Shown: positions 1 to 26,378, counted from the first letter of the stretch. The stretch is DNA of 64,000 bases from Fidelibacterota bacterium UBA2242 (GCA_002347855.1 DDYE01000017.1:188839-252838); one strand, 5' to 3'. A program made the numbers and translations. The notes: a model not told the origin generated them from the sequence alone.

Positions 1-2695
1 TGAGTTAAAGAATCGCTCTGATTATGAGTTTGCAAAACAGAAATTTGAAGAATTATGGGAAAATGCTGTTGATGTTAGCGAAAGATATATTCAGACAATA
101 AATGAAAGAACCTGGCTTAATCAAAATATTACCCCTTACGAACTTTATCTTAAATTTTTATACGAGTATTTTAAGGATGAACTCTCCAGAACTGATGAAG
201 TTTTTACAAAATATTTGCCTTCCGATTTCAAAAGGTTTGAATATCAAGAACAGGCAGTTCTGAATGCAAAGAAGATATTAGAAGAATATGGTGGAGCTTT
301 TATTTCTGATGTAGTGGGACTTGGTAAAACCTATGTTTCTACTATGCTTGCAGGACAGCTTGATGGTAGAACCCTTGTTATAGCACCGCCTGCGCTTCTT
401 AATAAAAATAATCCTGGCTCCTGGCCAAATGTTTTTTCCGATTTTCATATTCCAGCTGAGTTTGTATCAATTGGTAAACTTGATGAGGCAAAAAGGTTAG
501 TAGAGCTAAGAGAATATAGAAACATTATTATAGATGAAGCACACCGTTTCAGGACAGAAACAACTATCAGTTATGAAGACATTGCTGAAATTTGTCGCGG
601 GAAAAGAGTAATTTTGGTCTCTGCAACTCCTTATAATAACTCACCAAGAGATATCCTTGCACAGATTAAACTTTTCCAGAATGTAAGAAAAAGCACTATC
701 CCCGGCGTTTCTAATCTTGAGGAATTCTTTGGAAGACTTGTGGGAAGATTAAAAGAGGTCGACCGTCATAAAGATTATAATAAGTTCCTTGATATAACAA
801 AAAGTAATGCAAAAGAAATCCGTGATAGAGTATTGAAATATTTGATGGTTAGAAGAACAAGAACTGAAATTGAAAAATATTTTGCCGAGGATTTAAAGAA
901 AAACAAGGTTCAATTTCCGGAAGTAGAAGACCCAAAGCCATTTTATTACCAGTTAAACGATGATGAAGACAGAATCTTTATGGAAACTGTAAGGTTAATA
1001 ACTCAGAATTTCAAATATACCCGTTATATGCCATTACTTTATTTAACGAAACCCATTTCTCAACTGGAAGAGCAATCGCAAAGAAATATGGGCGGTTTTA
1101 TAAAAGTCCTCCTTGTAAAACGCCTTGAAAGTAGTTTTTATGCATTTAGAAAAAGTATAGACAGATTCATCCATTCCTATGAAATGTTTATTAAGGAATA
1201 TGAAAAAGGAAATGTATATATAAGCAAAGGATACATAAACAAAATTTTTGAGCTTTTGGAACAAGGAGATGATGAAGCAGTCCAGAAACTTATTGAAGAA
1301 GGAAAAGCAGAAAAATATGAAAGCAAAGACTTTAGACCTCATTTTGCGACGGACCTAAAAAATGACTTTGAAATTTTAAGACAGATAAAATCTATGTGGC
1401 AATCTATAAAAAGGGACCCCAAACTTGAAACCTTACTGGGAAATTTGAAAAAACACAATATCTTGAGAAATAAGAAAATAATTATCTTTACAGAGTCAAA
1501 AGAGACAGCAGAGTATTTGAATGAAAATATAAATAATGATGTAGGTAAAATTGCCCTTCTATTTCATGGCAATTCGCCAGAAGTAGTTAGAGACAGAGTT
1601 ATAGAAAATTTTGACGCAAGGGCAAAAATTAAAAAAGATGATTATAAAATACTTGTCTCAACCGAAGTTCTTTCTGAAGGTGTTAATCTTCATAGATCAA
1701 ACATAGTAATAAACTACGATATACCCTGGAATCCAACAAGGTTAATGCAAAGAGTGGGGAGAATAAACCGTATAGATACACCATTTGACAGAATTCATAC
1801 ATTTAACTTTTTCCCGACAAGACAGGCAGATTCTGAAATTGAACTTACAAACATTGCTCGTTCAAAAATAGAAGCATTTTTAACATTGCTCGGCGGGGAT
1901 AGTTCAATCCTCACTGAAGGAGAACCTGTTTCCTCTCATGAACTATTTGATAAACTACTTTCAAAGAAAACTATTGCCGAAGATGAGGAAGAAGAAAGCG
2001 AACTCAAGTATTTAAGAATTATTGAGGATGTCCGCAATAAAAATCCCGAACTTTTTGAAAGGATAAAGCATCTTCCTAAGAAGGCTCGTTCTGCAAAGAT
2101 ATTTTCTCAATCTCTAAAAGATATTGCTTCTGCTGATTCTTTAATCACTTTCTTTAGAAAGGGCAAGTTAATGAAATTCTTCCTTTCAAATAAAAGTTCT
2201 ACTGTTGAACTTGATTTCTTGGCGTCTGCAAAGATTCTTAAGAATTCATCAGATGAGAAAAGAACAAAACTACCTCTTGAGGTTTACTATGAACTCCTTG
2301 ATAAAAATAAAACAGCGTTCTTTAATGCAACTATTGAAGAAATTATAAGCACTCATAAGCGTGGTGGTTCAGATAGTCAAACCAGATTGTTAAAAATTCT
2401 AAAAGCAACACAAAAAAACAGCAAGCAACTGACTGAAGAGCAGGAAGAATACCTTAAAAAACTCATAACCCGGCTTGAAGAAGGCGCTTTACCAAAACAA
2501 ACAGTAAAGAAAACCCTCAATGCACTGAACAAACTCGCAAAAGATATACAAAATCCATTAAAAGTAATTGGAGTTTTACAAAGAGAAATCTCATTTACAT
2601 TTCTAAAAAGCCACTATGCAGAAACTTCTGCTATAACAGAAGGAAAAAGAGAGGTTATATTATCACTTTATTTAGCGGAGGAAAGCGATGAATAG
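1..2695 (+). CDS. SF2 helicase (DEAD/DEAH-box, SNF2/Res-like), 5'-partial; reading frame is open to position 2 so the N-terminus lies upstream of the window
   Basis: Walker A GLGKTY, DEAH box IIDEAHRF, motif III SATP, C-terminal helicase lobe with QRVGRINR; the annotated TTG at 215 is internal because the frame continues without stop to the window edge. Confidence 0.8.
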   Translation, partial: ELKNRSDYEFAKQKFEELWENAVDVSERYIQTINERTWLNQNITPYELYLKFLYEYFKDELSRTDEVFTKYLPSDFKRFEYQEQAVLNAKKILEEYGGAFISDVVGLGKTYVSTMLAGQLDGRTLVIAPPALLNKNNPGSWPNVFSDFHIPAEFVSIGKLDEAKRLVELREYRNIIIDEAHRFRTETTISYEDIAEICRGKRVILVSATPYNNSPRDILAQIKLFQNVRKSTIPGVSNLEEFFGRLVGRLKEVDRHKDYNKFLDITKSNAKEIRDRVLKYLMVRRTRTEIEKYFAEDLKKNKVQFPEVEDPKPFYYQLNDDEDRIFMETVRLITQNFKYTRYMPLLYLTKPISQLEEQSQRNMGGFIKVLLVKRLESSFYAFRKSIDRFIHSYEMFIKEYEKGNVYISKGYINKIFELLEQGDDEAVQKLIEEGKAEKYESKDFRPHFATDLKNDFEILRQIKSMWQSIKRDPKLETLLGNLKKHNILRNKKIIIFTESKETAEYLNENINNDVGKIALLFHGNSPEVVRDRVIENFDARAKIKKDDYKILVSTEVLSEGVNLHRSNIVINYDIPWNPTRLMQRVGRINRIDTPFDRIHTFNFFPTRQADSEIELTNIARSKIEAFLTLLGGDSSILTEGEPVSSHELFDKLLSKKTIAEDEEEESELKYLRIIEDVRNKNPELFERIKHLPKKARSAKIFSQSLKDIASADSLITFFRKGKLMKFFLSNKSSTVELDFLASAKILKNSSDEKRTKLPLEVYYELLDKNKTAFFNATIEEIISTHKRGGSDSQTRLLKILKATQKNSKQLTEEQEEYLKKLITRLEEGALPKQTVKKTLNALNKLAKDIQNPLKVIGVLQREISFTFLKSHYAETSAITEGKREVILSLYLAEESDE

Positions 2696-5600
2696 GGAGC
2701 AGGCAAAAAATATAATAACTGAAACCCTTGAAAATTCTTTTGATAAAAGTAAGTTCATCTATTTTCTCAAAAACCTCTTAAAATCTTTTGAAGAGAAATC
2801 TTCTGTCTATCAAGGTAACCATATCCCTGATGCCTTTGAACAATACATAAGTTCGTTAGAAAGGATTGGTAAATATATTTGTGATGAGAAAGAAATTGAT
2901 TTACTGATTGTCCAGCTAAAAAGAGAGACCTCCCTTGAGCGTGCAAGAACAATGCAGAGGAATTTTGTTGCCTGGTACCTTAAGGGAAGTAGAGGCGGAA
3001 AATTAAAAGATGCTGCGCTTGTTGCCTTTGTTTCACCCACGAGCGAAGATTGGCGTTTTTCCCTTGTAAAGATGGATTATCGCTTTGAAGAAACACCTTC
3101 CGGCAAAGTAAAAATTAAAGAAGAATTCACGCCAGCAAGAAGATGGTCTTTTCTTGTAGGTAAAAATGAAAAAAGCCATACCGCCCGGAACAGATTTATT
3201 CCAATACTTGAGGATGATGAAAAGCGACCTACTTTGGAAGATTTAGAACAGGCGTTTAGTGTAGAAAAAGTAACGGACGAGTTCTTTAAATCCTATAGAT
3301 ATGCTATAAATGAAGTAATAATAAAATCATTGAACAAAAAGGTAGACCACCAAATCAAACATTCATTTGCCCAGCAACTCCTTTCCAGAATTTTATTTAT
3401 CTATTTCCTTCAAAGGAAAGGATGGCTTAAATGGAAAAACTACGAACAGGATAAAAGTTATATTAAAAACCTCTGGCTAAAATATAAATCCTACAACTAT
3501 GAAAATACTTTTTATTCCCATTGGCTTAGCAGTCTATTCTTTGGTGCGTTTAATAAAAAATCTCAATTTATAAATCCTGATCTACCCGATGAGATAAGAG
3601 AATCTTTTATACAAATGCCTTTTCTTAATGGTGGGTTATTTCACAAAAACGAACTTGATGAAATAGGTTTTGATGTGCCCGATAATGTCTTTGAATGGCT
3701 GTTTGAGCCAAATGAAACTGACGAAGATTTGCACAAAGGATTCCTTGAAGTATTTAACTTCACAATTGACGAATCAAGCCCCGATGATGTAGAAGTTGCT
3801 GTTGACCCGGAAATGCTGGGAAAAGTGTATGAATCCCTGATTAACGAAGAAGAACAAGGTTTTGCTGGAATATTCTATACTCCTCTTGTGGAAATTGATT
3901 TTATGTGCAGATTATCTCTTGTGGAATATCTTTGCACCAGAACCCAAACAAGTAAACAGGATTTAATTGAACTGGTTTTTACTCTACCCGCCATTGATAG
4001 TTATCAAAACATAGAGAACCTAAGGAAAATCAAAAAAGCTTTAGATGATGTAAAAATAGTTGACCCTGCTGTTGGCTCTGCATCTTTCCTTGTAGGAATG
4101 ATGAATATTTTGGTTGAATTACACTCTGCATTAACAAAAAGAATAGAAGGTAAAGAAGAAAATCTTTTTGCACTGAAACAAAAAATAATACTTGAAAACC
4201 TTTACGGTGTTGATGTTAAAGACTGGGCAGTAATGGTTGGTGAACTTCGTCTCTGGCTTTCCCTTATTATTGAAACCGACGAAAAATTTATGGACATCTA
4301 CACTAAACCTCTTCTGCCTAATCTGACCTTTAAAATTCGTCAGGGCGATTCACTGGTTGAAGCAATAGGCGATGTATTTATTAACCTGAGAGGGAATGCT
4401 CTGAAAACAATTCCCAAATCTATTCAGCAAAAAATCTCTGAACTCATTGACAAAAAGGCTGAATTCTTCTCAGGTAAACGAAGTGCTGATTTGAAGGAAC
4501 AACACGAAATAGAAAATATGGAAGCAGGAATATTCAAAAAAATTTTACAGGTAAAAGTGGATGAGTTAAAAGGAAAGTTAACAGAGAAAAATAGATTATT
4601 AAAACAATTGAAAGGCTCAAAAAATCTTTATGGAGAAGAGGACGCAAAATCAAAACAAGAACAAGAAAAACTTTCTAAGGAAATTGAGCAACTGGAAAAT
4701 GAACTAAATAAATACCAAAAAGCAATCGATAGTATTGGTCAAAAAAGCAAAAAAGATTACTTCCTCTGGGAACTTGACTTTGCTGAAGTGTTTGCTAAAA
4801 ATGGCGGTTTTGACATTGTAATCGGTAATCCACCTTATGTGCGACAGGAACTCATTGCTCCACCACTTGAAAACGAAAAAGATTATTCTCCTGAGGAATG
4901 GCGTGAGTTAAAAAGACAGTATAAAGAAAAACTTATTCAAGCAACCCAAAATGTATGGCAAGATGTAAAAAGAATCGATAAAAAGAGCGACCTCTATGTT
5001 TACTTTTACTATCAAGGATTATCTCTACTCACCGACAACGGTATTTTCTGCTTTATTAACTCCAACAGCTGGCTGGATGTGGGTTATGGTGCAGGGTTGC
5101 AGGAATTTCTACTTAAAAATATGAAGCCAATTTATATCATAGACAACATTGCCAAACGCTCGTTTAAACAGGCAGATGTTAATACCGTAATTGTGCTTAT
5201 ACAAAAACCATCTGCAAGGACTGTAGGGGCTCAAAATTTTGAGCCCGAGCTATATAAACCAGTAAAATTTATCGCCTTCAAAAAGCCATTTGAAGAGGTA
5301 GTAGCAAACGGCTGTTTGCTTATGAAAGAGATAGAAAACACCACTAAGCCAGTGTTTAACAACCCGGTTTACAGAGTCTTTCCCAAAACCAAAAAAGAAC
5401 TCCTTGAAGAGGGAGTGGAATATCCCGACGAATCAGAATTAGAATTAAACCAAAGCCCCGAACAGCTTCCTTATGTTGGTAATAAATGGGGCGGTAAATA
5501 CCTGCGCGCGCCGGAGATTTATTTTAAGATTCTGGAAAAGGGAAAAGTAGGGGCGAAAGGCCGTTCGCCCCTACTGGTGCGATTGGGAGATATTGCTGAA

Positions 5601-6470
5601 GTGCGACGGGGATTTACCACAGGTGCGAATGAATTCTTCTATCTTAAACCAGTTGGAATGACGGTAAAGGAAGTGGTAAAGATAGCAGAAAAAAATCCAC
5701 AAGCACTCATAAGAGTAAAGAATGGTGCTGGCTGGGAGGGTGAGATTGAGGCAGAGTTTTTAAAGCCTGTGATTAAAAGCCCAAGAGAACTAAAAACCAT
5801 CATGGTAAGGATTGAAGACCTGAATTATCTCGTATTTATGTGCCACAAGAGCAAGAAAGAACTCAAAGGGACAAAGGCGCTGGAGTATATTGAGTGGGGA
5901 GAGAAGCAAAAATTCAACCAAAGACCGACTTGTAGAAGTAGGAGCTTGTGGTGGGATTTGGGGGAGTTATATTTTTTGATAATCTCGAAAAGATTTGTTG
6001 ATGAGAGTTTTTCATACTTTTATAATCAAAATAATTTTTTTGTTGGAGATACATTTTTCATTATTAATACTATAAATCCATATGATGTTTTAATAACTTT
6101 AAACTCAATTATCGGAAGTCTATTTACTGAAATTATTGGAAGAAAAAATATGGGTGAAGGTGTTCTTTTAATATATGGTCCTGAAATCTATAATATACTT
6201 ACTATTAAAAAACTTGACACTACTGATGAATTAAAACAAAAAGTCTTCTTTTCAATAATTAATAAAAATGTGTCCTCAATATTTAATGAAATATCTATAG
6301 ACAAGAATCATCCCATTCGTGAGCAGGAGCCCAATCCCTTGCCCGACCGTAAGGAGCTGGACGATATTGTTTTTGATGCTCTTGGCCTCACCGAAGAAGA
6401 ACGCAAAGAAGTTTACTGGGCAGTAGCGGAATTGGTAAAAGCAAGATTAGATAAGGCAAAGAGTGTGTGA
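2688..6470 (+). CDS. N6-adenine DNA methyltransferase, gamma class, Eco57I/PglX-like with C-terminal TaqI_C-like specificity region
   Basis: FYTP motif, SAM motif I VDPAVGSASFLVGM (about nt 4062), coiled-coil insert, motif IV GNPPYV (nt 4827-4838), C-terminal ...LGLTEEERKEVY... helix; ATGA start/stop overlap with helicase. Confidence 0.85.
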   Translation: MNREQAKNIITETLENSFDKSKFIYFLKNLLKSFEEKSSVYQGNHIPDAFEQYISSLERIGKYICDEKEIDLLIVQLKRETSLERARTMQRNFVAWYLKGSRGGKLKDAALVAFVSPTSEDWRFSLVKMDYRFEETPSGKVKIKEEFTPARRWSFLVGKNEKSHTARNRFIPILEDDEKRPTLEDLEQAFSVEKVTDEFFKSYRYAINEVIIKSLNKKVDHQIKHSFAQQLLSRILFIYFLQRKGWLKWKNYEQDKSYIKNLWLKYKSYNYENTFYSHWLSSLFFGAFNKKSQFINPDLPDEIRESFIQMPFLNGGLFHKNELDEIGFDVPDNVFEWLFEPNETDEDLHKGFLEVFNFTIDESSPDDVEVAVDPEMLGKVYESLINEEEQGFAGIFYTPLVEIDFMCRLSLVEYLCTRTQTSKQDLIELVFTLPAIDSYQNIENLRKIKKALDDVKIVDPAVGSASFLVGMMNILVELHSALTKRIEGKEENLFALKQKIILENLYGVDVKDWAVMVGELRLWLSLIIETDEKFMDIYTKPLLPNLTFKIRQGDSLVEAIGDVFINLRGNALKTIPKSIQQKISELIDKKAEFFSGKRSADLKEQHEIENMEAGIFKKILQVKVDELKGKLTEKNRLLKQLKGSKNLYGEEDAKSKQEQEKLSKEIEQLENELNKYQKAIDSIGQKSKKDYFLWELDFAEVFAKNGGFDIVIGNPPYVRQELIAPPLENEKDYSPEEWRELKRQYKEKLIQATQNVWQDVKRIDKKSDLYVYFYYQGLSLLTDNGIFCFINSNSWLDVGYGAGLQEFLLKNMKPIYIIDNIAKRSFKQADVNTVIVLIQKPSARTVGAQNFEPELYKPVKFIAFKKPFEEVVANGCLLMKEIENTTKPVFNNPVYRVFPKTKKELLEEGVEYPDESELELNQSPEQLPYVGNKWGGKYLRAPEIYFKILEKGKVGAKGRSPLLVRLGDIAEVRRGFTTGANEFFYLKPVGMTVKEVVKIAEKNPQALIRVKNGAGWEGEIEAEFLKPVIKSPRELKTIMVRIEDLNYLVFMCHKSKKELKGTKALEYIEWGEKQKFNQRPTCRSRSLWWDLGELYFLIISKRFVDESFSYFYNQNNFFVGDTFFIINTINPYDVLITLNSIIGSLFTEIIGRKNMGEGVLLIYGPEIYNILTIKKLDTTDELKQKVFFSIINKNVSSIFNEISIDKNHPIREQEPNPLPDRKELDDIVFDALGLTEEERKEVYWAVAELVKARLDKAKSV
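5547..5574. repeat. 28-bp REP-like palindrome copy 1 (GTAGGGGCGAAAGGCCGTTCGCCCCTAC, one arm mismatch), in frame inside the methyltransferase gene (encodes VGAKGRSPL)
   Basis: read directly; 14-bp arms. Confidence 0.9.
6403..6470. repeat. direct repeat copy A: last about 20 codons plus stop of the methyltransferase gene
   Basis: about 68 bp, repeated at 8755-8822 with about 4 mismatches. Confidence 0.9.
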
Positions 6471-6492
6471 AAAAAAATAAATAGGAGGTTAT

Positions 6493-8724
6493 ATGATAAC
6501 AAAAATAAAAATTGAGAACGTAGCAACTTATAAAGAAGCCTTAGAAATTGATAATATAAAGAAAGTTAACTTTTTCTACGGTAGTAATGGTAGTGGTAAA
6601 ACTATTTTATCAAAACTAATTGCTAATTCAGATTCATATAGTGATTGTAATATTGAATGGCAAAATAATACAAAACTAAAGAGAATTGTTTATAATGAAG
6701 ATTTTGTTAGGTCAGTTTTTTACCAAAACGAAAATTTTCCGGGTATTTTTACTATGGGAGAGGGAGCAAAAGATATTGAAGTGCAAATCGACCAGAAAAA
6801 TCAAGAAAGGGAAAAAATTCAAAATGAACAAACGAGTTTAAATAATACACTGAAACAAAAAAAGGTAGAATTAAATAATAAATCAGATGAATTTAAAGAA
6901 TTATGCTGGAGAAAAGTATATCAAAAATATCAAGATGATTTTACTGAAGTTTTCACAGGGTACCGTAATAACAAAAAAAATTTTGCTGAGCGTTTATTGA
7001 ATCAGTATGAATCAAATGAATCAGTATTAAGAAAAAATGAATACCTATTGGACCTATACAATCTTTTATTTAAAGAAGAATTAAAATCGATCAATCTATT
7101 AAATTTAATTTCAGATGAAGTGATTAAAGAACTACAAAAATTGGAGACAAATGAAATATTAAAAACCGAAATAATCGGAAAGAAAGATGTTGATATTGCT
7201 CGAATGATTGAAAAATTACACAACCATGATTGGGTAAGACAAGGAAAGAAATACTATGAAGAAAATTATGATGAAGAGAAAGGCTCTTATATATGTCCTT
7301 TTTGTCAGCAAGCAACAACAGAAGATTTTAAACAAAAACTTGAAGAATATTTTGATGAAACTTATGAAAAACAAGTAAAACAATTAGATGAGTTTATAGA
7401 AAAATATAACGAACTAAATAATAAATTGAATAAATACTTTGATGATTTATTAAATACTAAAGATAATAAATATTTTGATGCAAAAAAAGATGAATTAAAA
7501 AGCCAAATTGAAATCATTAAAGAGAAATTGAAAAACAATATTTTTCTGATAAATAAGAAAAGGGACAAGCCCAGCGAGGATATATCAATAGAATTTTTAA
7601 CTGATGTTATAGGTGAATTAAATAATTTGATTAATTCTATAAATGAAGAAATAAAAAAATATAATGAAATTGTAAATAATCAGCAAAATGAAAAAAACAA
7701 ACTTATTTCTGAAATATGGAAATTTTTCTGCAATGAAATTAGTATGGATATTAAAAGTTATTTGAGTGGTAAAAATAATATCGAGAAGGCGATAGACGAT
7801 ATCAAAAAACAAGTTGAAGAAAAAGAGACCAAAATAAAATGTATTACAAATGAAATATCAGAATTAGAAAAACAAATTAAAAGCATAAAACCAACAATTG
7901 ATGCAATAAATAAAGTTTTAGATAAGTTTGGTTTTAGGGGATTTAAATTAGCTCCAACTGAAGATGAAAAACACTATAAAATTATTAGAGAAGACGAGAC
8001 TTCTGCAAAAGAAACATTAAGCGAAGGAGAAAGAAACTTTATTGTATTTCTTTATTTTTATCATTTAATTCAAGGAGCATTGAATCCAGAAGAAAATATA
8101 AACGAACCTAAAGTCGTAGTTTTTGATGATCCAGTTTCAAGTCTTGATTCTGATGTATTGTTTATTGTAGCAACTTTAATTAAGGGTATTATAAAAGACA
8201 TAAGAGAGGGAAAAGGAAATATCAAACAGGTTTTTCTTTTAACACACAATGCCTATTTTCATAAAGAAGTCACATATTCATCAAGTCGGGATTATGGTCA
8301 AAATAAAAGAAATGACACAATGTATTTTATTATTAGAAAAGTAAACGGGATAAGTAAAATCGAAGAATATGAAACAAATCCCATTAAAACCACTTATCAG
8401 TTATTGTGGGATGAAATAAAAAATGGAAGAATAGACTGTGTATCTCTTCAGAATTCAATGCGGCGTGTTATAGAATTTTATTTTAATACATTGGCTGATT
8501 TAAAAGAAGAAGAGTTAATAAACAAATTTAACAATGAAACAGATAAGAAAATTTGTCGTTCATTAATTACCTGGATTAATGTTGGTTCGCATGATGCCTT
8601 TTTTGATATTGATTATTCGCCAAGTCCAGATGAAATTTCTAAATATAAAGATATATTTAAAAAGATATTTGAAGAAACTGGTCATATTTCACATTACAAT
8701 ATGATGATGGGGATTCCTGAATAA
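6493..8724 (+). CDS. AAA_13-type ABC ATPase, RloC/PrrC-like (putative anticodon nuclease)
   Basis: AGGAGG RBS at 6483-6488; Walker A GSNGSGKT (6580-6603); long coiled coil with CPFC zinc-hook-like motif (7294-7305); ABC signature LSEGE, Walker B VVVFDDP, H-loop LLTHN; C-terminal R-x3-E (RRVIE) followed 39 aa later by H (VGSHD). Confidence 0.6.
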   Translation: MITKIKIENVATYKEALEIDNIKKVNFFYGSNGSGKTILSKLIANSDSYSDCNIEWQNNTKLKRIVYNEDFVRSVFYQNENFPGIFTMGEGAKDIEVQIDQKNQEREKIQNEQTSLNNTLKQKKVELNNKSDEFKELCWRKVYQKYQDDFTEVFTGYRNNKKNFAERLLNQYESNESVLRKNEYLLDLYNLLFKEELKSINLLNLISDEVIKELQKLETNEILKTEIIGKKDVDIARMIEKLHNHDWVRQGKKYYEENYDEEKGSYICPFCQQATTEDFKQKLEEYFDETYEKQVKQLDEFIEKYNELNNKLNKYFDDLLNTKDNKYFDAKKDELKSQIEIIKEKLKNNIFLINKKRDKPSEDISIEFLTDVIGELNNLINSINEEIKKYNEIVNNQQNEKNKLISEIWKFFCNEISMDIKSYLSGKNNIEKAIDDIKKQVEEKETKIKCITNEISELEKQIKSIKPTIDAINKVLDKFGFRGFKLAPTEDEKHYKIIREDETSAKETLSEGERNFIVFLYFYHLIQGALNPEENINEPKVVVFDDPVSSLDSDVLFIVATLIKGIIKDIREGKGNIKQVFLLTHNAYFHKEVTYSSSRDYGQNKRNDTMYFIIRKVNGISKIEEYETNPIKTTYQLLWDEIKNGRIDCVSLQNSMRRVIEFYFNTLADLKEEELINKFNNETDKKICRSLITWINVGSHDAFFDIDYSPSPDEISKYKDIFKKIFEETGHISHYNMMMGIPE

Positions 8725-8754
8725 TTAAAATCATGCTTCTAAAAGTACAGGAAG

Positions 8755-8822
8755 GCAAAGAAGTTTACTGGGCAGTAGCGGAATTGGTAAAGGCAAGATT
8801 AGATAAGGCGAGGAGTGTGTAA
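8755..8822. repeat. direct repeat copy B: orphan duplicate of the methyltransferase 3' terminus, downstream of the RloC-like gene
   Basis: aligns to 6403-6470; in the methyltransferase frame encodes ...KEVYWAVAELVKARLDKARSV followed by a stop. Confidence 0.9.
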
Positions 8823-8878
8823 AGAAAAATGTTAATTCAAAAATTAAAATGAAATTTGAAATAAAATCGCAGAACAAA

Positions 8879-9487
8879 ATGAAATTCAATCCTGAAACCC
8901 ACCACCGCCGTTCTATCCGATTAAAAAATTATGATTATATCCAACCCGGTGCATATTTCATAACCATTGTAACCAATAAACGACAATGTTTGTTTGGCAA
9001 AATTGAAAATGGTGTAATGCGGTTGAATGAATTTGGGGAAATTGTTCGTGATGAATGGTTTAAATCAAATGAAATCCGGCGGGAAATTGTATTGAACGAT
9101 TATGAATTTGTTGTAATGCCCAATCATATTCACGGAATCGTATGGATTGTTGAAAACAATGACATGGGGACAAACGGTAATATCATTGTAGGGGCGAACG
9201 GCCGTTCGCCCCTACAAAAACAATCAAACAAAAACCAACCACCAACACATTCGGATTCCCCATTGATACGAATGTCCCCAAAATCAATTTCATCGTTTGT
9301 TGCCGGGTTCAAATCCGCCGTAACAAAACAAATAAACCAATTACGCCAAACGCCGGGCATTCCCGTTTGGCAACGCAATTATTACGAACATATCACCCGC
9401 AACGATGATGAATTACAACGAATTCGTGAATACATAATCAATAATCCAATAAATTGGGAACTGGACGAAAATTATGAACGAAATTGA
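8879..9487 (+). CDS. REP-associated tyrosine transposase (RAYT), IS200-like Y1 HuH family; probable start at second Met (ORF begins 8849)
   Basis: N-terminal HHRRSIRLKNYDY, HuH motif MPNHIHGIVWI, catalytic Tyr motif WQRNYYEHITRND; contains the perfect palindrome at 9188-9215. Confidence 0.8.
   Translation: MKFNPETHHRRSIRLKNYDYIQPGAYFITIVTNKRQCLFGKIENGVMRLNEFGEIVRDEWFKSNEIRREIVLNDYEFVVMPNHIHGIVWIVENNDMGTNGNIIVGANGRSPLQKQSNKNQPPTHSDSPLIRMSPKSISSFVAGFKSAVTKQINQLRQTPGIPVWQRNYYEHITRNDDELQRIREYIINNPINWELDENYERN
9188..9215. repeat. 28-bp REP-like palindrome copy 2 (GTAGGGGCGAACGGCCGTTCGCCCCTAC, perfect), in frame inside the RAYT gene between HuH and Tyr motifs (encodes VGANGRSPL)
   Basis: read directly; perfect 14+14 inverted repeat. 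Confidence 0.9.
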
Positions 9488-10377
9488 ATTGCATAAAACA
9501 TTAAACCAATTAGGCGAGGAATGGCTGAGTTCAAAAATTCAGCGGATGCGTAATCTATTGAAGATTGCCTTACCCGATGAAGCACTTTATCGCGAAATAA
9601 TGCTCTCCCTTGGCTATCCAAAAAACAAAGTTCAGTTTTTAGAATTGGCGCTCCTTTTACCCTACAAAGAAATTCAAAAACTCAAAACCCAACCACTCAT
9701 CGAGAAAGCACTGTTGTACAGGGCAGGATTTACACAAGACGCTTCTAATCTTCCGGGAGATTTTGACACCTCACTAAAACTTAACAATTCATACTGGACA
9801 TACAAATCAATTCGACCAGCGAACTTTCCAGATAAAAGAATAAAAGATTTTTCAGATTTGCTTTTTAAGACAACAGAAAAAGGAATATACAATTATTTCA
9901 AAAAGCAGATAGAGAAAAATTATACAGAGGTATATGATAAAACATCAGCAAAGAAAATAGTTGAAAAAATTATGTCGTTTAAAGGTATTGGGATTAGCAG
10001 AAAGAGAGAAATGTTTTTTAATATAATACTACCATTCTTTTTGTCGGATGAATCATTTAGTAATTATCATAGTTTTTTAATAAAACTTTTTGAAACACAC
10101 GCTTCCCTTGATGAAAACAGTAAAATTAAAAAATTTTATAAATTGGTAGGGGCGAACAGCCGTTCGCCCCTACGTCAACCAAATGAAAAAATTCAAATTT
10201 CAAATGCTAAGGAATATTTTGGTGCAATTAAATTTAGTGGTGGATAAAATCATTTCCGTAAAAAGGCAAAATAAAAACGCTGACACAAGTAACTGGGAGC
10301 GAGAGATAGACCAGGTAGTTTATAAACTTTATGGTTTGACAGAGACTGAGATAATAATAATAGAGGATTTTAAATAA
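9474..10377 (+). pseudogene. ORF of unknown function split across two frames; C-terminus resembles the terminal helix of Eco57I/PglX/TaqI_C-type modules
   Basis: frame 0 ORF 9474-10247 and frame +1 ORF 10183-10377; deleting the 28-bp palindrome at 10146-10173 joins them into one ORF (...KKFYKL/VNQMKKFKF...EREIDQVVYKLYGLTETEIIIIEDFK). Confidence 0.5.
10146..10173. repeat. 28-bp REP-like palindrome copy 3 (GTAGGGGCGAACAGCCGTTCGCCCCTAC, one arm mismatch) at the frameshift point of the 9474-10377 ORF
   Basis: read directly. Confidence 0.9.
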
Positions 10378-10644
10378 AATATATTAAGAGGAGAATCATA
10401 ACCGCCACTGACCAGCCCCAGCCCTTTCATAACCCAAAGATGATCCATTGGAAAATTCTGAAAGTATTATAGCTTTTAATATTTCTTGCTTCTATTAGCA
10501 AAAGAAAGGGCTGGGTTTAGGGAAGGGATAAGACCTTTGCGGGCAAGTTTATAGACGGTGTGTTCATCCATCTGCCCCACCCTTTCTAAAAGAATTACTT
10601 ATCCTTCTTTTCAAATGTCCTAATGATGAACCATATTGTTTAAG

Positions 10645-10872
10645 TTATCTTTCTCGTAACTGTGCACCTTCCTTTGATATGTAAGCCTCATAATAAATAA
10701 GATTCCAGTTTTTATTTTTATCTTTATGTTCCATATATCTTCGTTTTAAATCTTGTGTCCATCCAATGTAAATATTCCCATTTTTAGAATTCTTTAACAA
10801 ATACACATAATACATTTTGAAAGGGCGGGGTTCTGTAACCTGTTTAAGCGTCATTATTTCTTTTTCATTCAT
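10645..10872 (-). CDS. GIY-YIG nuclease family protein (small standalone; ORF extends to 10938, likely start at MNEKEIM)
   Basis: GIY-YIG motifs YYVYLLKN...GNIYIGWTQDLKRRYMEH. Confidence 0.65.
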   Translation of the reverse strand: MNEKEIMTLKQVTEPRPFKMYYVYLLKNSKNGNIYIGWTQDLKRRYMEHKDKNKNWNLIYYEAYISKEGAQLRER

Positions 10873-11544
10873 AAAGGCAATCCTTTTTTTAAAACATAAT
10901 CTTTTATAAAATCTGACTGTAATATACAAAAAATACAATGGTTGTCAAGAACAGTCCTGATAAAAATAAAATCCTTATAGGGTGGTGGGTGGGAATAGAT
11001 AGATAAACTTTGCCGATGCAATTGGCAGAGGGAAACTGAAACGCTTTCAGTATGGCAGGAAGTAAAGGGAGCAGTGCGAGGACGCAAATTGTGTCCAAGC
11101 CTGCGACTGTGATGCTATTTCTTTAAGTTTCTTTCTTTTGATTGGTGAATGGAATTTGGTAAAATTAGCGGAACGGTTCGTAGTGATTTTAAAAGCGGAA
11201 AGTAATAACGATTTTAGCCAGGTCAAGGTAAGGAAAATGCAGGTGCTTATATTTTAGAAAGTCTGAATATTCAAATTAACGCTGAACAGGTCGGTTGATT
11301 TATTAAAACAATTTGGAATATAAACCATCGTTCTCGATTGAGTAGATTTTGTCCGAGAGCAAGTCACTGAACCAGAATTTGGAACTTATATAGATGGCGA
11401 TTCTGGCAATCAGCGAATTCAGAGGTAAAGCGCGTCAGGTTGTTGCGGATCAGGGTCAAAGAGAAATACTTTCGCTTATTCTCAATTTTTGACGAACTTT
11501 AGGATGTACGTAAGCTTTATTAAATAATGTTAAAAGGAGATAGA

Positions 11545-12864
11545 ATGAAAAAGGTCAGAGAAATCGTTATCAGTTTTTTTATTATCAGTTTGATTGTTTT
11601 TTCACAGGCAGCCACCTGGAATGACCGACTGGACAGCCTGATGAACACGCAGGAGCAGAATAATAAGTTCATGGGTTCACTGGCAATTAGTAAAGCGGGT
11701 AAGCCTATTTATGTCAGAGCCTGCGGCTATGCCGATGTCGAACATAAGGTTGCCGCGCAAACTGAAACGAAGTACCGCATTGGTTCTGTTTCCAAGGTCT
11801 TTACGGCAGTAATGATTTTTCAATTAATTGAGGAACAAAAATTATCACTCGATACCAGGTTAGCCCAATTTTTCCCCGAAATCCCCAATGCTGACAAAAT
11901 TACCATAAGCCACCTTTTGAATCATCGCAGTGGCATCCATAATTTCACCGATAGCGTGTACACGACCTATTACACCAAACCCAAAACACAAAAGGAATTA
12001 CTTGATATTTTCAAATCCTATCCGCCCGAGTTTAATCCCGGTGAAAAAATGCAGTACAGCAACACAAACTATGTTTTGCTGGGTTATATTATCGAGAGAA
12101 TTACGAAAAAAGATTACGATAGTAACCTGCAGAAGCGCATTTGTAAAAAATTAGGTTTGAAGAATACCTACTATGGGGGTAAGATTAGAATTGCCAATCG
12201 CGAAGCCTATTCTTACACCTATGATGGAAAATATTGGGTAATTGAACCAGAGACTGATATGTCAATTCCGCATGGTGCTGGAGGCATAGTATCGACGGCG
12301 ACCGATCTGGTGGTTTTTATTAATGGCTTGTTTAATAATAAACTTGTGCAGAAATCTTCTTTAGACGAGATGTTGAAATTAGAGGACCGGTTCGGGAAGG
12401 GGCTTATTCAAATGTCCTTTTATACTCATCCCGGTTTTGGTCACACAGGCGGCATTGATGCCTTTAGTGCGTCTTTAATTTATTTTCCTGAAGATAGTCT
12501 TGCCATCGCAGTTTGCTCTAATGGCTTGAACTATCCTATGAATGACATTCTCGCAGGCGCCTTGAAAATTTATTTCAATATGCCATACCAGATACCGGTT
12601 TTCAAGACGATTGAACTGAGTATAGAGGAACTGCAAAAGTTCACCGGTGTCTATTCTCGTAGCGATTTCCCACTCAAGTTCACGATAGCTTTGAACGGGC
12701 ATCAATTGACTGCTCAAGCAACTGGTCAGCGGGCATTTCCCCTTGAACCGGTCAGCCCTAATGAATTCAAATTTGACCCAGTCGGAGTTAAAATGATTTT
12801 TGGCGCTGATGGTCAGCTGACTATCGAGCAAAGAGGCATGATCATAGTATTACAGAAAGAGTAA
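11545..12864 (+). CDS. serine hydrolase, beta-lactamase/PBP family, secreted
   Basis: AGGAG RBS before ATG at 11545; signal peptide; SxxK motif GSVSKVFT. Confidence 0.85.
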   Translation: MKKVREIVISFFIISLIVFSQAATWNDRLDSLMNTQEQNNKFMGSLAISKAGKPIYVRACGYADVEHKVAAQTETKYRIGSVSKVFTAVMIFQLIEEQKLSLDTRLAQFFPEIPNADKITISHLLNHRSGIHNFTDSVYTTYYTKPKTQKELLDIFKSYPPEFNPGEKMQYSNTNYVLLGYIIERITKKDYDSNLQKRICKKLGLKNTYYGGKIRIANREAYSYTYDGKYWVIEPETDMSIPHGAGGIVSTATDLVVFINGLFNNKLVQKSSLDEMLKLEDRFGKGLIQMSFYTHPGFGHTGGIDAFSASLIYFPEDSLAIAVCSNGLNYPMNDILAGALKIYFNMPYQIPVFKTIELSIEELQKFTGVYSRSDFPLKFTIALNGHQLTAQATGQRAFPLEPVSPNEFKFDPVGVKMIFGADGQLTIEQRGMIIVLQKE

Positions 12865-13562: not shown

Positions 13563-14360
13563 ATGACGCAAAAAGGCAATTATTTCTGTGAAATTTTGGT
13601 TTTTCCTCTGCTTATCTTGCTTTGCAGCTGTGTAGTACCGTCCGCACTCAGGGCTGAGCAGGCGCCTATTCCCGCGCGAACATCCCAGCTGGTTATTGTC
13701 CTTACTCAATCATTTGATGATAATCAAGCGCGATTATATTGTTTTGAACGCCAGGTACCGCTAAATAACTGGCGACTGAGATTGGGACCATTTGCGGCAA
13801 TTATTGGCAAACGCGGCTTGGCTTGGGGACGCGGGTTGCATTCAAACTTACCGGATTATGCGCCAGTTAAAGTCGAAGGTGATAAAAAAAGTCCTGCGGG
13901 AGTATTTCGCTTGGGACCGGTGATAGGACGACCGGAGGAGCTGCCGGATATAAAAATGCCCTATGTTTCAATCATGACCTTAGTTGAATGTGTAGATGAT
14001 CCGCGCTCACGCTATTACAATCAATTAGTGCGACCTGATACTGTCGCCGAGCGGGATTGGAATTCTTCTGAGCGACTCTTCTTACCTGGCATCTGGTACG
14101 ATTTTGGTGTCGTTGTTCAGCATAATTCACCCCTTCCTGTAAGTGGAAGCGGGTCATGTATTTTTCTCCACAACTGGGATAGTCCGTCGGATTCGACCAC
14201 GGGTTGCACGGCGCTGGCGCCTGAGAACCTAACTCAAATTGTTAAATGGTTGGACATATTAAGGCAACCGGTGATTGTACAACTACCGCAATCAATTTAT
14301 GAGAAAGTAAAGCAGAAATGGCATTTACCTGCCATTCATGACTTTCATAGAGAGCCTTGA
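13563..14360 (+). CDS. L,D-transpeptidase (YkuD) family protein
   Basis: catalytic-type motif CIFLHNW...TTGCTAL; hydrophobic N-terminus. Confidence 0.6.
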   Translation: MTQKGNYFCEILVFPLLILLCSCVVPSALRAEQAPIPARTSQLVIVLTQSFDDNQARLYCFERQVPLNNWRLRLGPFAAIIGKRGLAWGRGLHSNLPDYAPVKVEGDKKSPAGVFRLGPVIGRPEELPDIKMPYVSIMTLVECVDDPRSRYYNQLVRPDTVAERDWNSSERLFLPGIWYDFGVVVQHNSPLPVSGSGSCIFLHNWDSPSDSTTGCTALAPENLTQIVKWLDILRQPVIVQLPQSIYEKVKQKWHLPAIHDFHREP

Positions 14361-14439
14361 TTGCTCTCACAGTAAGAACTCATCGCTGCTTATGGAAGTC
14401 CTGGGCTGCCGACATCGTCCTAGGAAATCGAATAAAATA

Positions 14440-15519
14440 TTAGAAATCACACTCTATTAAGTGGTATTTGCGATTCCCAAGACCTATTTCTTCGCCATAG
14501 CGCAGCTGCTCAGTAGCATCGTTGTTAGGATATGCTAGCTGCGCTAAAGTCTTCTGGTGAAAATTTTGGGTCAAATCCAGTACTGCCTGGTCAATAGCAA
14601 CGGGATCAATGCCAGCCAGGACACCGATGTCGGGAATCAGCGGAGTTTGTTTCCCAACCAAGCAGTCACAGTCTTTGGTCATATTTATCATGAAAGTCAT
14701 AAATCCGATTTTGCCTTTTTTCTCTTTGATTATACCGAGGGCATGTTCGGCGATCTGGCGTTGTAAATTGATAGATGTGTTGTCCCAGCGGAAACGAATC
14801 GCGTTCTGGCGGCAAAGGGTTAAGCATTCGCCACAACCGATACAGATAGTTTCATTGATAATCGCAAATTGCTGTCCGACGATAATGGCATCGGAAGGGC
14901 ACCAGTGAGCGCAAATACTACAAGCGGTACATTTATTTTTATCGATGCGTGGTTTGCTTTGGGAGTGCTGAGTCAATTTCCCTTTGCGACTCGCCATGCC
15001 CATACCGATATTCTTGATAGTAGCACCAAGTCCGGCATTAATGTGTCCAGTAGCGTGTGAGAGAACGATTATCGAATTGGCTGAAACGATTTCGGTAGCC
15101 AGAGACACGGTTTTATTTAAAGGGGCATTTATTTCAATTGCGGCCTCATTTTTACCTTTAATTCCATCCGCAATAATAACTGGTGCTCCCACCCGCTCAT
15201 AAGTAAAACCATGACTATAAGCCAATTCCAGATGCGTAACCGCATTATCGCGCACGCTTTTATAGAGCACATTGGTATCGGTTAAAAAAGGGCGCGCACC
15301 TCGCTCTCTTACACAATGGACTATGGGACTAATCAAATCCGGTGAAAGAAATGTATCGCTCTGCTTTTCACCAAAGTGGACCTTGATGGCGGTGTGGTCG
15401 TTAGTTTCGACGAGTTTATCGAGCCCGGCAGTATAAAAAAGTTTAGTCAGGCGTTCCTGACTTTGAGGAAGTGGGGCGGTCGCCTGCAATTTGAGCCAGA
15501 ATACTTTGCTTTGCATCAT
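14440..15519 (-). CDS. DUF362 domain protein with 4Fe-4S ferredoxin domain
   Basis: two CxxCxxCxxxCP motifs (CTACSICAHWCP, CIGCGECLTLC). Confidence 0.75.
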   Translation of the reverse strand: MMQSKVFWLKLQATAPLPQSQERLTKLFYTAGLDKLVETNDHTAIKVHFGEKQSDTFLSPDLISPIVHCVRERGARPFLTDTNVLYKSVRDNAVTHLELAYSHGFTYERVGAPVIIADGIKGKNEAAIEINAPLNKTVSLATEIVSANSIIVLSHATGHINAGLGATIKNIGMGMASRKGKLTQHSQSKPRIDKNKCTACSICAHWCPSDAIIVGQQFAIINETICIGCGECLTLCRQNAIRFRWDNTSINLQRQIAEHALGIIKEKKGKIGFMTFMINMTKDCDCLVGKQTPLIPDIGVLAGIDPVAIDQAVLDLTQNFHQKTLAQLAYPNNDATEQLRYGEEIGLGNRKYHLIECDF

Positions 15520-20245: not shown

Positions 20246-20261
20246 GACAAAACTCCTTCAA

Positions 20262-20873: not shown

Positions 20874-21006
20874 TGGTTTCCCTTCTCTTTGTTCTTGTGC
20901 ATTGATCTTAAAACCACTTATAAAGACGTAAAAAAAATAACTATAAGGAAAAAGAACGAATTCTTCTTTTTTGTTTTCATAGCGACCTCCTAATTAATCT
21001 TATTAA

Positions 21007-22017: not shown

Positions 22018-22222
22018 CAATTTATATTTATAAGACCTGAAATGATTAAGAATAATTTGAAAATGGTTACTGATATTAAGAAAAGTATCCATTTGGTATA
22101 GTGGCTGTAGTATTGGTTCAGCGGAAACGCACTTCGCCATTTTCACACTGCCAGCCATCTTAGAAATTCCTTTTCATAACGTTGCCATTATATTCTTATT
22201 ATAAACAATACATAGTAGGAAA

Positions 22223-24916: not shown

Positions 24917-24934
24917 TTAAACCTCCTTTGTTTG

Positions 24935-26028: not shown

Positions 26029-26378
26029 TTTCCTCCGATTTGTTGTATTGCCTCAAATTAAAGTTCAAAATATTCCCTTCCACTTTGTTAGACAAAATCA
26101 TCATTCTTAGCGCAATCCCTCCTTCTTCCATTTGCTCAGGAAAAGACAACTACTCGATTTTCCTCGCTTTTTTCATTGAAGACTCTATTTGCTTCTGGCA
26201 TAATATATACACTGGGGGGGTAATGTCAAGAGATTTTTTTAAATTTGGAAAGTTTCAAGACATGGTATCCAGTTGGCAAGCATAAATTGGCTTAAGATCA
26301 TCTTTTTGAGGAGTTAAAGATTTTGATAAAGAGAGTTAGGGAAGTCTATGGGATCGAAATGCGAGCTTTCTCGAGTAG

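What the first reader, a model, noticed from the sequence alone, without database searches (positions are those of the whole stretch)
6403..8822. 68-bp direct repeat: the methyltransferase 3' terminus (last ~20 codons plus stop) is duplicated immediately downstream of the RloC-like gene
Positions 6403-6470 and 8755-8822 are about 94% identical. The RloC-like gene with its own RBS sits exactly between the copies and is visibly more AT-rich than the methyltransferase. This looks like a footprint of cassette insertion or replacement by recombination at the conserved methyltransferase C-terminus, marking the RloC-like gene as a separately acquired module in a variable slot.
Basis: seen in the sequence. 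Interest (0 to 1): 0.6.

Follow-up and report, generated by a model that had tools for sequence, protein, structure and literature searches.

The report
Duplicated methylase tail marks inserted gene
An 80-base copy of the end of a DNA-methylase gene sits just after a neighbouring anti-phage-type gene; it is the scar left when that gene was spliced into a restriction-like operon, an already described kind of event that recurs in this gene family.

Summary
The repeat is real: window 6399-6478 and 8751-8830 match at 74 of 80 bases, and chance would give about 1e-24 such pairs. Copy 1 is the working end of a 1260-aa Eco57I-type methyltransferase (last 23 codons, the stop, and 8 nt). Copy 2 is a dead fragment 27 nt after the stop of an AAA_13 / PADLOC PDC-S06, RloC-like gene.

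The closest relative (L137) has helicase, methyltransferase, Y1 and DUF2851 with one tail and no AAA_13. That makes it an empty-site comparator. At 5 of the 6 sites where the copies differ, L137 agrees with copy 1.

In other relatives the gap between methyltransferase and DUF2851 is empty or holds at least eight other cargo types. Ten of 78 relatives carry extra tail copies. Three lineages of close AAA_13 homologues are flanked by duplicates of an unrelated methyltransferase tail.

The closest known phenomenon is 'insertion with long target duplication' of restriction-modification genes (Nobusato 2000; Furuta 2010). The closest known analogues for the cargo are prrC and rloC embedded in restriction loci.

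The exact recombination route is unresolved. The candidates are a homology-anchored import and a de novo target duplication. I rate this a new member of a known kind, of moderate interest.

The parts
1..2695 (+). PLD-SNF2 helicase gene, 5' end cut by the window edge. The full gene encodes 1091 aa with an N-terminal PLDc_2 domain in the source genome.
   Evidence: Pfam Helicase_C/ResIII/SNF2. PADLOC DrmD-like and HKD+Snf2. Full-length gene calls in L081-L083.
2688..6470 (+). Eco57I / Type IIG-like N6-adenine methyltransferase, 1260 aa. This is the gene whose tail is duplicated.
   Evidence: Pfam Eco57I 1.2e-28 and MmeI_Mtase. PADLOC REase_MTase_IIG 437 bits.
6399..6478 (+). Repeat copy 1: the functional methyltransferase terminus (last 23 codons, TGA, and 8 nt).
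   Evidence: It agrees with the outgroup L137 at 5 of the 6 sites where the two copies differ.
6479..8750 (+). Inserted segment: AGGAGG RBS (6480-6485), the AAA_13 ORF (6493-8724), and 26 nt of 3' flank.
   Evidence: Bounded by the ends of repeat homology. Absent from L137.
6493..8724 (+). AAA_13 / PDC-S06, RloC-like ABC ATPase with a putative C-terminal anticodon-nuclease domain, 743 aa.
   Evidence: Pfam AAA_13 1e-173. PADLOC PDC-S06 843 bits and PrrC 3e-12. Motifs found: GSNGSGKT at 30, CPFC at 268, LSEGE at 509, VVVFDDP at 541, LTHN at 583, R657-x3-E661, H700.
8751..8830 (+). Repeat copy 2: a 5'-truncated relic of the methyltransferase terminus. It lies in a 29-codon mini-ORF (8733-8822) with no Shine-Dalgarno sequence.
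   Evidence: The sequence after its stop is collinear with the L137 methyltransferase-Y1 intergenic region.
8879..9487 (+). RAYT-like Y1 (HUH) gene, 202 aa (alternative start at 8849). It is ancestral to the AAA_13 insertion because L137 shares it.
   Evidence: Pfam Y1_Tnp. NCBIfam REP_Tyr_transpos 68.8 bits, below the cutoff of 80. Homologous to the L137 178-aa protein.
9474..10247 (+). DUF2851-like gene, the conserved last gene of the helicase / methyltransferase / slot / DUF2851 scaffold.
   Evidence: Pfam DUF2851 2.8e-11. Homologues lie downstream of the methyltransferase in 14 relatives.
5547..5574 (.). 28-nt REP-like palindrome, in frame inside the methyltransferase (VGAKGRSPLL), at the left edge of the segment that has no nt homology to L137.
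9188..9215 (.). The same palindrome inside the Y1 CDS (VGANGRSPLQ).
10146..10173 (.). The same palindrome inside the DUF2851 CDS. It is an insertion relative to L137.
10400..11199 (.). Right arm of about 0.55-kb inverted repeats that bracket the whole island (10400-10574 and 10831-11199, interrupted by a 256-nt insert). The left arm lies 0.7-1.2 kb upstream of the window start.
   Evidence: L081 arms 2265-2815 vs 13908-14707, 89-96% complementary.

Best explanation
The repeat is an insertion scar. The ancestral operon was PLD-SNF2 helicase, Eco57I-type methyltransferase, RAYT-like Y1 and DUF2851, as still seen in L137. A promoter-less one-gene cassette (RBS plus the AAA_13/RloC-like ORF) was placed 8 nt after the methyltransferase stop codon. 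The last 71 nt of the methyltransferase plus those 8 nt ended up on both sides of the cassette.

Copy 1 keeps the methyltransferase intact. Copy 2 is a non-functional relic that still abuts the old methyltransferase-Y1 intergenic sequence, and it carries five of the six differences between the copies.

Most likely route (inferred): recombination anchored on the conserved terminal block of this methyltransferase family. Under this route, DNA from a closely related locus that already carried AAA_13 behind its methyltransferase supplied its own tail plus the cassette. The join on the far side fell inside the resident tail. This could have been homology-facilitated illegitimate recombination or Campbell-type integration of a circle carrying tail plus cargo.

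Consequences (inferred): AAA_13 is co-transcribed with the restriction-like genes and acts as a second-line, PrrC/RloC-style effector. The two repeats, with a 37-nt identical run, allow precise loss of the cassette by homologous deletion. Repeated gain and loss of this kind would make the gap between methyltransferase and DUF2851 a variable slot.

The stated confidence of 0.6 applies to scar plus route taken together. I put the insertion-scar reading alone at about 0.9 and the homology-anchored route at about 0.45.
For: Shown:
- The repeat is real, far above chance, and present in independent assemblies.
- Empty-site comparator L137. Window 1-5547, 6314-6470 and 8906-10142 align collinearly to L137 at 73-85% nt identity. 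L137 has one tail, no AAA_13, and Y1 24 nt after the methyltransferase stop.
- Three-way alignment. Both window copies share about 9 differences from L137, so they are each other's closest relatives. At 5 of the 6 sites where they differ, L137 matches copy 1. DNA after copy 2 continues like the L137 methyltransferase-Y1 spacer, whereas DNA after copy 1 diverges at +8 into the AAA_13 RBS.
- Variable slot. None of 80 methyltransferase relatives has AAA_13. The methyltransferase-DUF2851 gap ranges from 88 nt to 6.4 kb and holds at least 8 cargo types.
- Recurrence. Ten of 78 relatives carry extra direct tail copies of 55-190 nt, always downstream and always reaching the stop codon.
- Close AAA_13 homologues in L091-93, L094/L142 and L143 are flanked by duplicates of an unrelated, TaqI_C-type methyltransferase tail.
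- Tail versus relic divergence is strongly biased towards synonymous changes in L002, L034, L037 and L068 (pN/pS 0.03-0.14, P of 0.025 or less even against a ratio of 0.5). In those loci the relic therefore came from another functional allele.
- The tail is an island of nucleotide-level similarity. In a blastn of the window methyltransferase gene, 41 of 80 relatives gave a nucleotide hit over the tail. Only 2 of 80 did over the 300 nt just upstream.
- Allelic replacement of the methyltransferase 3' part plus downstream genes at one chromosomal site within a species is seen directly in L137 versus L091/L092.
- AAA_13 has GC3 of 18.5% against 26-32% for its neighbours.
- Literature: insertion with long target duplication, with repeats that often span a stop codon (PMC2853133).
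Against: - No donor locus was found, meaning a methyltransferase with the KEVYWAVAELV-type tail followed by AAA_13.
- For the window pair alone there are only 4 coding differences (2 synonymous, 2 not). That is equally compatible with a de novo duplication followed by drift in copy 2.
- Cargo boundaries are tight (RBS to 7-44 nt after the stop) even where the tails are unrelated. This is more easily explained by a mechanism that duplicates the target anew each time.
- No empty site or excision product exists within the source species: all 16-18 contigs are at least 99.86% identical.
- L137 is a different species, so the comparison is syntenic and not allelic.
- Expression and function of AAA_13 were not tested.
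Confidence: 0.6

Rival explanations
1. [quoted passage not shown] It then re-copied about 80 bp of the target, so both copies were identical at birth, and copy 2 has since drifted.
For: Five of the 6 differences are derived in copy 2, and both copies share about 9 states against L137. The cassette is trimmed to RBS plus ORF. The same AAA_13 clade is flanked by duplicates of unrelated tails, which requires at least two independent duplication-generating events. The phenomenon is documented for restriction-modification genes, with 46-423-bp repeats that span stop codons (PMC2853133).
Against: Several other loci of this family have relics that diverged under coding constraint (pN/pS 0.03-0.14), which a purely in-situ duplication plus drift does not give. 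No molecular mechanism for such duplications has been demonstrated. The window pair has too few differences to decide.
Confidence: 0.3
2. Relic of a replaced allele. An incoming methyltransferase 3' part plus AAA_13 replaced most of the resident methyltransferase 3' region by substitution. Copy 2 is what remains of the old gene, so no cassette as such was inserted.
For: Substitution of the methyltransferase 3' part plus downstream genes within one species is seen directly (L137 vs L091/92). The window methyltransferase is a compositional mosaic: GC 0.35, 0.42, 0.22 and 0.48 along the gene. Its 5547-6314 segment is unrelated to L137. Synonymous-biased relics occur in other loci.
Against: The window methyltransferase body groups with DUF2851-associated methyltransferases, not with those next to AAA_13 homologues. 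The two tails are nearly identical, and L137 sides with copy 1 where they differ.
Confidence: 0.15
3. A dedicated cassette-exchange system. The methyltransferase tail is an attachment site, and the adjacent RAYT-like Y1 (HUH) enzyme, or another recombinase acting in trans, inserts and excises cassettes in an integron-like fashion.
For: Y1 homologues lie directly after a tail copy and are co-oriented in 7 of about 85 loci. In L050 and L056 they are themselves flanked by tail copies. L037 has six tail copies interleaved with REP palindromes next to Y1.
Against: The left boundaries of the duplications vary from 55 to 190 nt. Tails of unrelated sequence are duplicated too. The tail has no conserved secondary structure and its third codon positions vary freely. 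No hairpin lies at the window junctions. Most loci with duplicated tails have no Y1 nearby. Y1/IS200-type enzymes are not known to make target duplications (my own knowledge).
Confidence: 0.06
4. Copy 2 is kept because it has a function, either as a 29-aa peptide or as the promoter or translation signal for Y1-DUF2851.
For: An in-frame ATG at 8733 gives a 29-codon ORF that some gene callers report. Stop-to-stop (TGA to TAA) and K-to-R changes keep the reading frame open.
Against: There is no Shine-Dalgarno sequence before the 8733 ATG. Promoter-like and terminator-like sites are not enriched (25 found against 22.3 expected), and none is at copy 2. In L092, L094 and L142 the relic is followed by unrelated or divergently oriented genes. 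The L001 relic has internal stops.
Confidence: 0.04

Closest known systems
Insertion with long target duplication of restriction-modification genes (Nobusato et al. 2000, Gene 259:99; Furuta et al. 2010, PMC2853133)
   Same: Direct repeats of tens to hundreds of bp flank a short insert that carries no transposase or integrase. A related genome has one repeat copy and no insert. The repeat spans the stop codon of the target gene, so that gene stays intact. The insert has lower GC than its surroundings.
   Different: The cargo here is not a restriction-modification pair. It is a single accessory gene inserted inside a restriction-like operon. The same target, the methyltransferase terminus, is hit repeatedly across distant lineages. 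In several relatives the second copy derives from a different allele and is not a fresh duplication.
prrC in type Ic hsd loci and the rlo genes (including rloC) in Campylobacter type I loci (PMC2610378; Miller et al. 2005 as cited there)
   Same: An ABC-ATPase / anticodon-nuclease-type gene is nested among the genes of a DNA restriction system and is presumably co-regulated with it. The window protein has the RloC hallmarks: Walker A, a CxxC in a long helical insert, Walker B, and R-x3-E...H.
   Different: The host system is a PLD-SNF2 helicase plus a Type IIG-like methyltransferase plus DUF2851, not type I. RloC itself is reported to be only rarely linked to restriction-modification loci (PMC2610378). 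Activity was not tested here.
Allelic, cassette-like variation and target-recognition-domain swapping in restriction loci (Sibley & Raleigh 2004; Furuta 2010, 2011, as cited in PMC2853133)
   Same: Conserved blocks flank variable segments and act as recombination anchors. Alternative gene sets occupy one chromosomal locus (L137 vs L091/92).
   Different: Here the exchange leaves behind short, 5'-truncated relics of the previous methyltransferase terminus.
Homology-facilitated illegitimate recombination in naturally transformable bacteria (de Vries & Wackernagel 2002; Prudhomme et al. 2002; recalled from my own knowledge)
   Same: One homologous anchor plus one illegitimate join can trap foreign DNA next to a conserved sequence.
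   Different: This is usually described with deletion of recipient DNA, not retention of a duplicated anchor. It was not demonstrated for this organism.

Membership tests
Insertion with long target duplication (criteria of Furuta 2010) | Direct repeats longer than 30 bp flank the insert | tested here: met
   80 nt, 74/80 identical.
Insertion with long target duplication (criteria of Furuta 2010) | A related genome has one copy of the repeat and no insert (empty site) | tested here: met
   L137 has a single tail with Y1 24 nt after the stop and is collinear on both sides. It is a different species (73-85% nt identity). No empty site was found within the source species.
Insertion with long target duplication (criteria of Furuta 2010) | Insert shorter than 20 kb with no mobility gene inside | tested here: met
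   The insert is 2272 nt and contains one ORF, AAA_13. A Y1 gene lies outside the repeats and predates the insertion.
Insertion with long target duplication (criteria of Furuta 2010) | Insert contains both restriction and modification gene homologues | tested here: not met
   The cargo is an AAA_13/PDC-S06 gene only. The resemblance is therefore in mode of insertion, not in cargo.
RloC (wobble-nucleotide-excising anticodon nuclease) | ABC ATPase motifs (Walker A, signature, Walker B/D-loop, switch His) | tested here: met
   GSNGSGKT at 30, LSEGE at 509, VVVFDDPVSSLD at 541, LTHN at 583. Motif list from PMC2610378.
RloC (wobble-nucleotide-excising anticodon nuclease) | Coiled-coil insert with a CxxC zinc hook inside the ATPase domain | tested here: inconclusive
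   CPFC at 268-271 lies between Walker A and the signature motif in a K/E/N-rich region. Coiled-coil propensity and structure were not computed.
RloC (wobble-nucleotide-excising anticodon nuclease) | C-terminal ACNase triad Arg-x3-Glu ... His | tested here: met
   R657-x3-E661 and H700, a spacing of 38 against 40 in G. kaustophilus RloC R692/E696/H737. The PADLOC PrrC model matches residues 470-729 at 3e-12.
RloC (wobble-nucleotide-excising anticodon nuclease) | tRNA anticodon-loop cleavage activity | not testable with these tools
   This needs biochemistry.
PADLOC PDC-S06 (candidate defence gene) | Full-length match to the family HMM | tested here: met
   PDLC04890, 842.8 bits, residues 1-741 on profile positions 1-724 of 732. 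The family is only a candidate, with no functional study found.
Transposon or insertion-sequence insertion | Short target duplication of fixed length, terminal inverted repeats, transposase in the insert | tested here: not met
   The duplication is 80 nt here and 55-190 nt in relatives. The insert ends have no inverted repeats and the insert contains no transposase.
Site-specific integration (integrase/att, integron attC) | Recombinase gene nearby and fixed crossover boundaries in a conserved core | tested here: not met
   No integrase lies in or next to the insert. Boundaries vary between loci, and unrelated tails are also duplicated. The tail has no conserved structure.
DISARM / BREX (for the host system) | Scores above the curated NCBIfam cutoffs for DrmD or PglX | tested here: not met
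   DrmD 137.6 bits against a cutoff of 610. PglX models 32-53 bits against cutoffs of 400-900.
REP-associated tyrosine transposase (RAYT), for the neighbouring Y1 gene | Match to the RAYT model and flanking REP palindromes | tested here: inconclusive
   NCBIfam REP_Tyr_transpos 68.8 bits, below the cutoff of 80. The palindrome occurs three times, inside the Y1, methyltransferase and DUF2851 coding sequences and not immediately flanking Y1.

The most novel reading that the evidence does not exclude
The conserved 3' terminus of this widespread methyltransferase family could be a genuine cassette-docking site. Under this reading, accessory defence genes are gained, stacked (six tails in L037) and lost at it by a dedicated process. 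That process might involve the RAYT-like HUH enzyme found directly after tail copies in seven loci. It would amount to an integron-like gene-capture platform built into a restriction-like operon in both bacteria and archaea.
Probability: 0.08. Interest if true: 0.75.

Novelty: new member of a known kind. Interest (0 to 1): 0.4.

Why it matters
The finding gives a clean, dated example of how accessory anti-phage genes are nested inside restriction-type operons without breaking them. The example has an empty site, a filled site and a decaying relic.

It also shows that one short conserved block, the methyltransferase C-terminus, is the recurrent junction for this in a helicase / methyltransferase / DUF2851 family spread across many bacterial and archaeal phyla. 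Relic tails can therefore serve as markers for finding cargo genes of likely defence function, and for ordering gain and replacement events.

It also places an RloC-like gene, a type reported to be only rarely linked to restriction loci, in tight linkage with a non-type-I restriction-like system.

Tried and rejected
- **Population-level empty site.** Look-ups by exact AAA_13 and DUF2851 proteins returned 16-18 contigs, all with the same arrangement at 99.86% identity or more. No polymorphism was found.
- **Donor locus.** None of 80 GTDB relatives of the methyltransferase has AAA_13. The closest AAA_13 homologues sit behind methyltransferases with other tail types.
- **Flanking duplication as a general property of AAA_13 genes.** It is absent around 24 complete, more distant homologues at 28-51% identity.
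- **Regulatory role for copy 2.** The promoter and terminator scan was at background level.
- **Structured nucleic-acid element in the tail.** RNAalifold on 26 tails gave -1.4 kcal/mol and codon-periodic conservation only.
- **A single donor block from the methyltransferase 3' part through AAA_13, judged from composition.** This was rejected as evidence because the tail itself is GC-rich in every lineage. That breaks the low-GC tract.
- **dN/dS for the window pair.** There are too few differences (4) to be informative.
- **Literature on DUF2851 and PDC-S06.** Nothing functional was found.
- **One failed call.** A translation in the wrong frame was repeated correctly.

Full report
**Observation.** The repeat is present as described and is slightly longer than reported. 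The repeat finder gives 6399-6478 and 8751-8830, 80 nt, 93% identical, the longest direct repeat in the region. Mismatches lie at 6402, 6440, 6458, 6460, 6469 and 6472, and the longest identical run is 37 nt. Such a match is expected about 2e-24 times by chance in the window. No third copy exists in the 64 kb. The same structure, with the same six mismatches, occurs in independently assembled contigs from NCBI, JGI and ENA, so it is not an assembly artefact.

**Anatomy.** The genes in order are as follows.
- A PLD-SNF2 helicase, cut by the window edge and 1091 aa in the source genome.
- An Eco57I / Type IIG-like methyltransferase, 2688-6470.
- An AAA_13 gene, 6493-8724, with AGGAGG 7 nt before its ATG.
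- Repeat copy 2.
- A RAYT-like Y1 gene, 8879-9487.
- A DUF2851-like gene, 9474-10247.

Copy 1 is the last 23 codons, the stop codon and 8 nt of the methyltransferase. Copy 2 starts 27 nt after the AAA_13 stop. It is in frame with a 29-codon mini-ORF that has no Shine-Dalgarno sequence and has an in-frame stop 8 codons upstream of its ATG.

The AAA_13 protein matches PADLOC PDC-S06 over its full length (843 bits) and the PrrC model in its C-terminal part. It carries the motifs that define RloC in PMC2610378: Walker A, CPFC at 268, the ABC signature, Walker B, a switch His, and R657-x3-E661...H700.

GC is 25.9% (GC3 18.5%) for AAA_13. It is 34-36% for the helicase and methyltransferase, and about 44% for the genome outside the island.

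**Empty-site comparator.** Among the metagenomic homologues of the methyltransferase, P0125 lies on contig L137. At the nucleotide level the window aligns collinearly to L137 as follows.

| Window | L137 | Identity | Content |
|---|---|---|---|
| 1-2097 | 5272-7368 | 83% | helicase |
| 2147-5547 | 7460-10827 | 76% | helicase end and methyltransferase |
| 6314-6470 | 11351-11507 | 85% | methyltransferase tail |
| 8751-8820 | 11436-11505 | 81% | the same L137 tail again (copy 2) |
| 8906-10142 | 11552-12728 | 73% | Y1 and DUF2851 |

L137 has one tail, no AAA_13, and its Y1 homologue starts 24 nt after the methyltransferase stop.

The three-way alignment adds three points.
- The two window copies share about nine differences from L137, so they are each other's closest relatives.
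- At five of the six sites where the copies differ, L137 agrees with copy 1.
- The sequence after copy 2 continues like the L137 methyltransferase-Y1 spacer, whereas the sequence after copy 1 diverges at +8 into the AAA_13 ribosome-binding site.

The ancestral state was therefore helicase, methyltransferase, Y1, DUF2851. AAA_13 was added later, and copy 2 is the displaced and decaying copy.

**Variable slot.** A scan of GTDB species representatives returned 80 loci with relatives of the methyltransferase (41-70% identity) from many bacterial and archaeal phyla. None has AAA_13. In the closer relatives a DUF2851-like gene follows the methyltransferase at distances from 88 nt to 6.4 kb. The gap is empty in L004. 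Elsewhere it holds DUF3800, ImmA/IrrE plus DUF4411, SLFN_AlbA_2/HATPase_c_4, AAA_15 plus a helicase, DUF5131, an AIG2-like gene, or Y1.

**Recurrence of the scar.** Ten of 78 loci have extra copies of the methyltransferase tail. These are L001, L002, L034, L037, L038, L050, L056, L057 and L068, plus the window itself, which was included in the scan as a control; L037 has six full copies. The copies are always direct, downstream and 5'-truncated, and they always reach the stop codon. They are 55-190 nt long and 71-93% identical. Cargo between the copies differs from locus to locus.

The closest AAA_13 homologues (60-65% identity) also mostly sit directly behind helicase plus Eco57I-type methyltransferase pairs. 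In three lineages (L091-93, L094/L142, L143) they are flanked by duplicates of that methyltransferase's own tail, which is of an unrelated TaqI_C type. More distant AAA_13 genes show no flanking duplication.

**Origin of the second copies.**
- In L002, L034, L037 and L068 the divergence between tail and relic is dominated by synonymous changes. pN/pS is 0.03-0.14, significantly below even the 0.5 expected if one copy drifts neutrally. These relics were therefore already diverged, functional termini of other alleles when they were joined.
- Within one species, L137 and L091/L092 carry alternative alleles at the same chromosomal site, with flanks 99% identical. One allele is the methyltransferase 3' part plus Y1 and DUF2851. 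The other is a different methyltransferase 3' part plus AAA_13 and a relic tail. The left break is about 600 nt into the methyltransferase.
- The tail is an island of nucleotide similarity: 41 of 80 relatives gave a blastn hit there, against 2 of 80 in the 300 nt just upstream. It has higher GC3 than the rest of the gene in every lineage. It has no conserved secondary structure, and its third codon positions vary.

These points favour recombination anchored on the conserved tail, but they do not prove it for the window. The window pair has only four coding differences. The tight trimming of cargo in loci with unrelated tails argues for a process that duplicates the target anew each time.

**Comparison with known systems.** The closest description is 'insertion with long target duplication' (Nobusato 2000; Furuta 2010, PMC2853133). 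That work reports direct repeats of 46-423 bp flanking restriction-modification genes, an empty site in a related genome, no mobility genes, and repeats that often span a stop codon so that the target gene survives. The window meets those features except that the cargo is not a restriction-modification pair.

The biological analogy is prrC in type Ic loci and the rlo genes of Campylobacter type I loci (PMC2610378).

The host system is not DISARM or BREX by the curated cutoffs. Transposon-type and integrase-type insertion fail their defining features.

**Verdict.** The finding is an ordinary type of genome scar in a well-documented class. What this analysis adds is that the same junction is reused many times in a widespread, uncharacterised helicase / methyltransferase / DUF2851 family, and that an RloC-like gene is one of its cargoes. 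The recombination mechanism and any role of the neighbouring Y1 enzyme remain open.

Noticed in passing
window 5547-5574, 9188-9215, 10146-10173: A 28-nt perfect palindrome (GTAGGGGCGAACGGCCGTTCGCCCCTAC) occurs three times and nowhere else in the 64 kb. Each copy is in frame inside a coding sequence (methyltransferase, Y1, DUF2851), encoding VGAxGRSPL. The DUF2851 copy is an insertion relative to L137. The methyltransferase copy sits exactly where nt homology to L137 stops.
   Followed up: partly
window 8879-9487; L137 11531-12067; L005 7690-8163; L037 13973-14554; L050 4388-5008; L056 11644-12264; L062 11472-12179: RAYT-like Y1 genes lie directly after a methyltransferase tail copy, co-oriented, in seven loci of this family. 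Where the protein was read (window, L137, L037, L050, L056, L062), a genome-specific palindrome sits inside the coding sequence just after the HUH motif; in L037, L056 and L062 further copies flank the gene. In L050 and L056 the Y1 gene is itself bracketed by tail copies.
   Followed up: partly
window 10400-10574 and 10831-11199 (partner arm about 0.7-1.2 kb upstream of window position 1; L081 2265-2815): The whole five-gene island is bracketed by inverted repeats of about 0.55 kb (89-96% complementary). The right arm is interrupted by a 256-nt segment carrying a small GIY-YIG ORF. The left arm overlaps a 48-aa HTH_17 gene. L137 has no such repeats.
   Followed up: partly
L037 11378-13887: Six full-length copies of the methyltransferase tail form two similar triplets, interleaved with GGGCACGGCATGCCGTGCCC palindromes and small ORFs. 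The array ends at a Y1 gene. The copies differ mainly at synonymous sites.
   Followed up: partly
L137 8600-13091 vs L091 4736-end / L092 1-4150: The same species and the same chromosomal site (TrmO to recA flanks 99% identical) carry two alternative alleles. One is the methyltransferase 3' part plus Y1 and DUF2851. The other is a TaqI_C-type methyltransferase 3' part plus AAA_13 and a relic tail.
   Followed up: yes
window 5202-6470: The methyltransferase is a compositional mosaic: GC 0.42 at 5202-6000, 0.22 at about 6003-6310, and 0.48 in the last 160 nt. The 5575-6313 part, presumably the target-recognition region, has no similarity to L137, although 5448-5928 is conserved at nt level in 38-65 other relatives.
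   Followed up: partly
window 1-10400 vs 11500-64000; also 20001-28000: The island has 33% GC against about 44% for the rest of the window. A second lower-GC stretch (37-38%) lies at 20-28 kb and was not examined.
   Followed up: no
L144 8394-9756: One close AAA_13 homologue (60% identity) has no methyltransferase upstream. It is followed by Kiwa genes (KwaA, KwaB) and IS fragments, so it lies in a different defence-island context.
   Followed up: no
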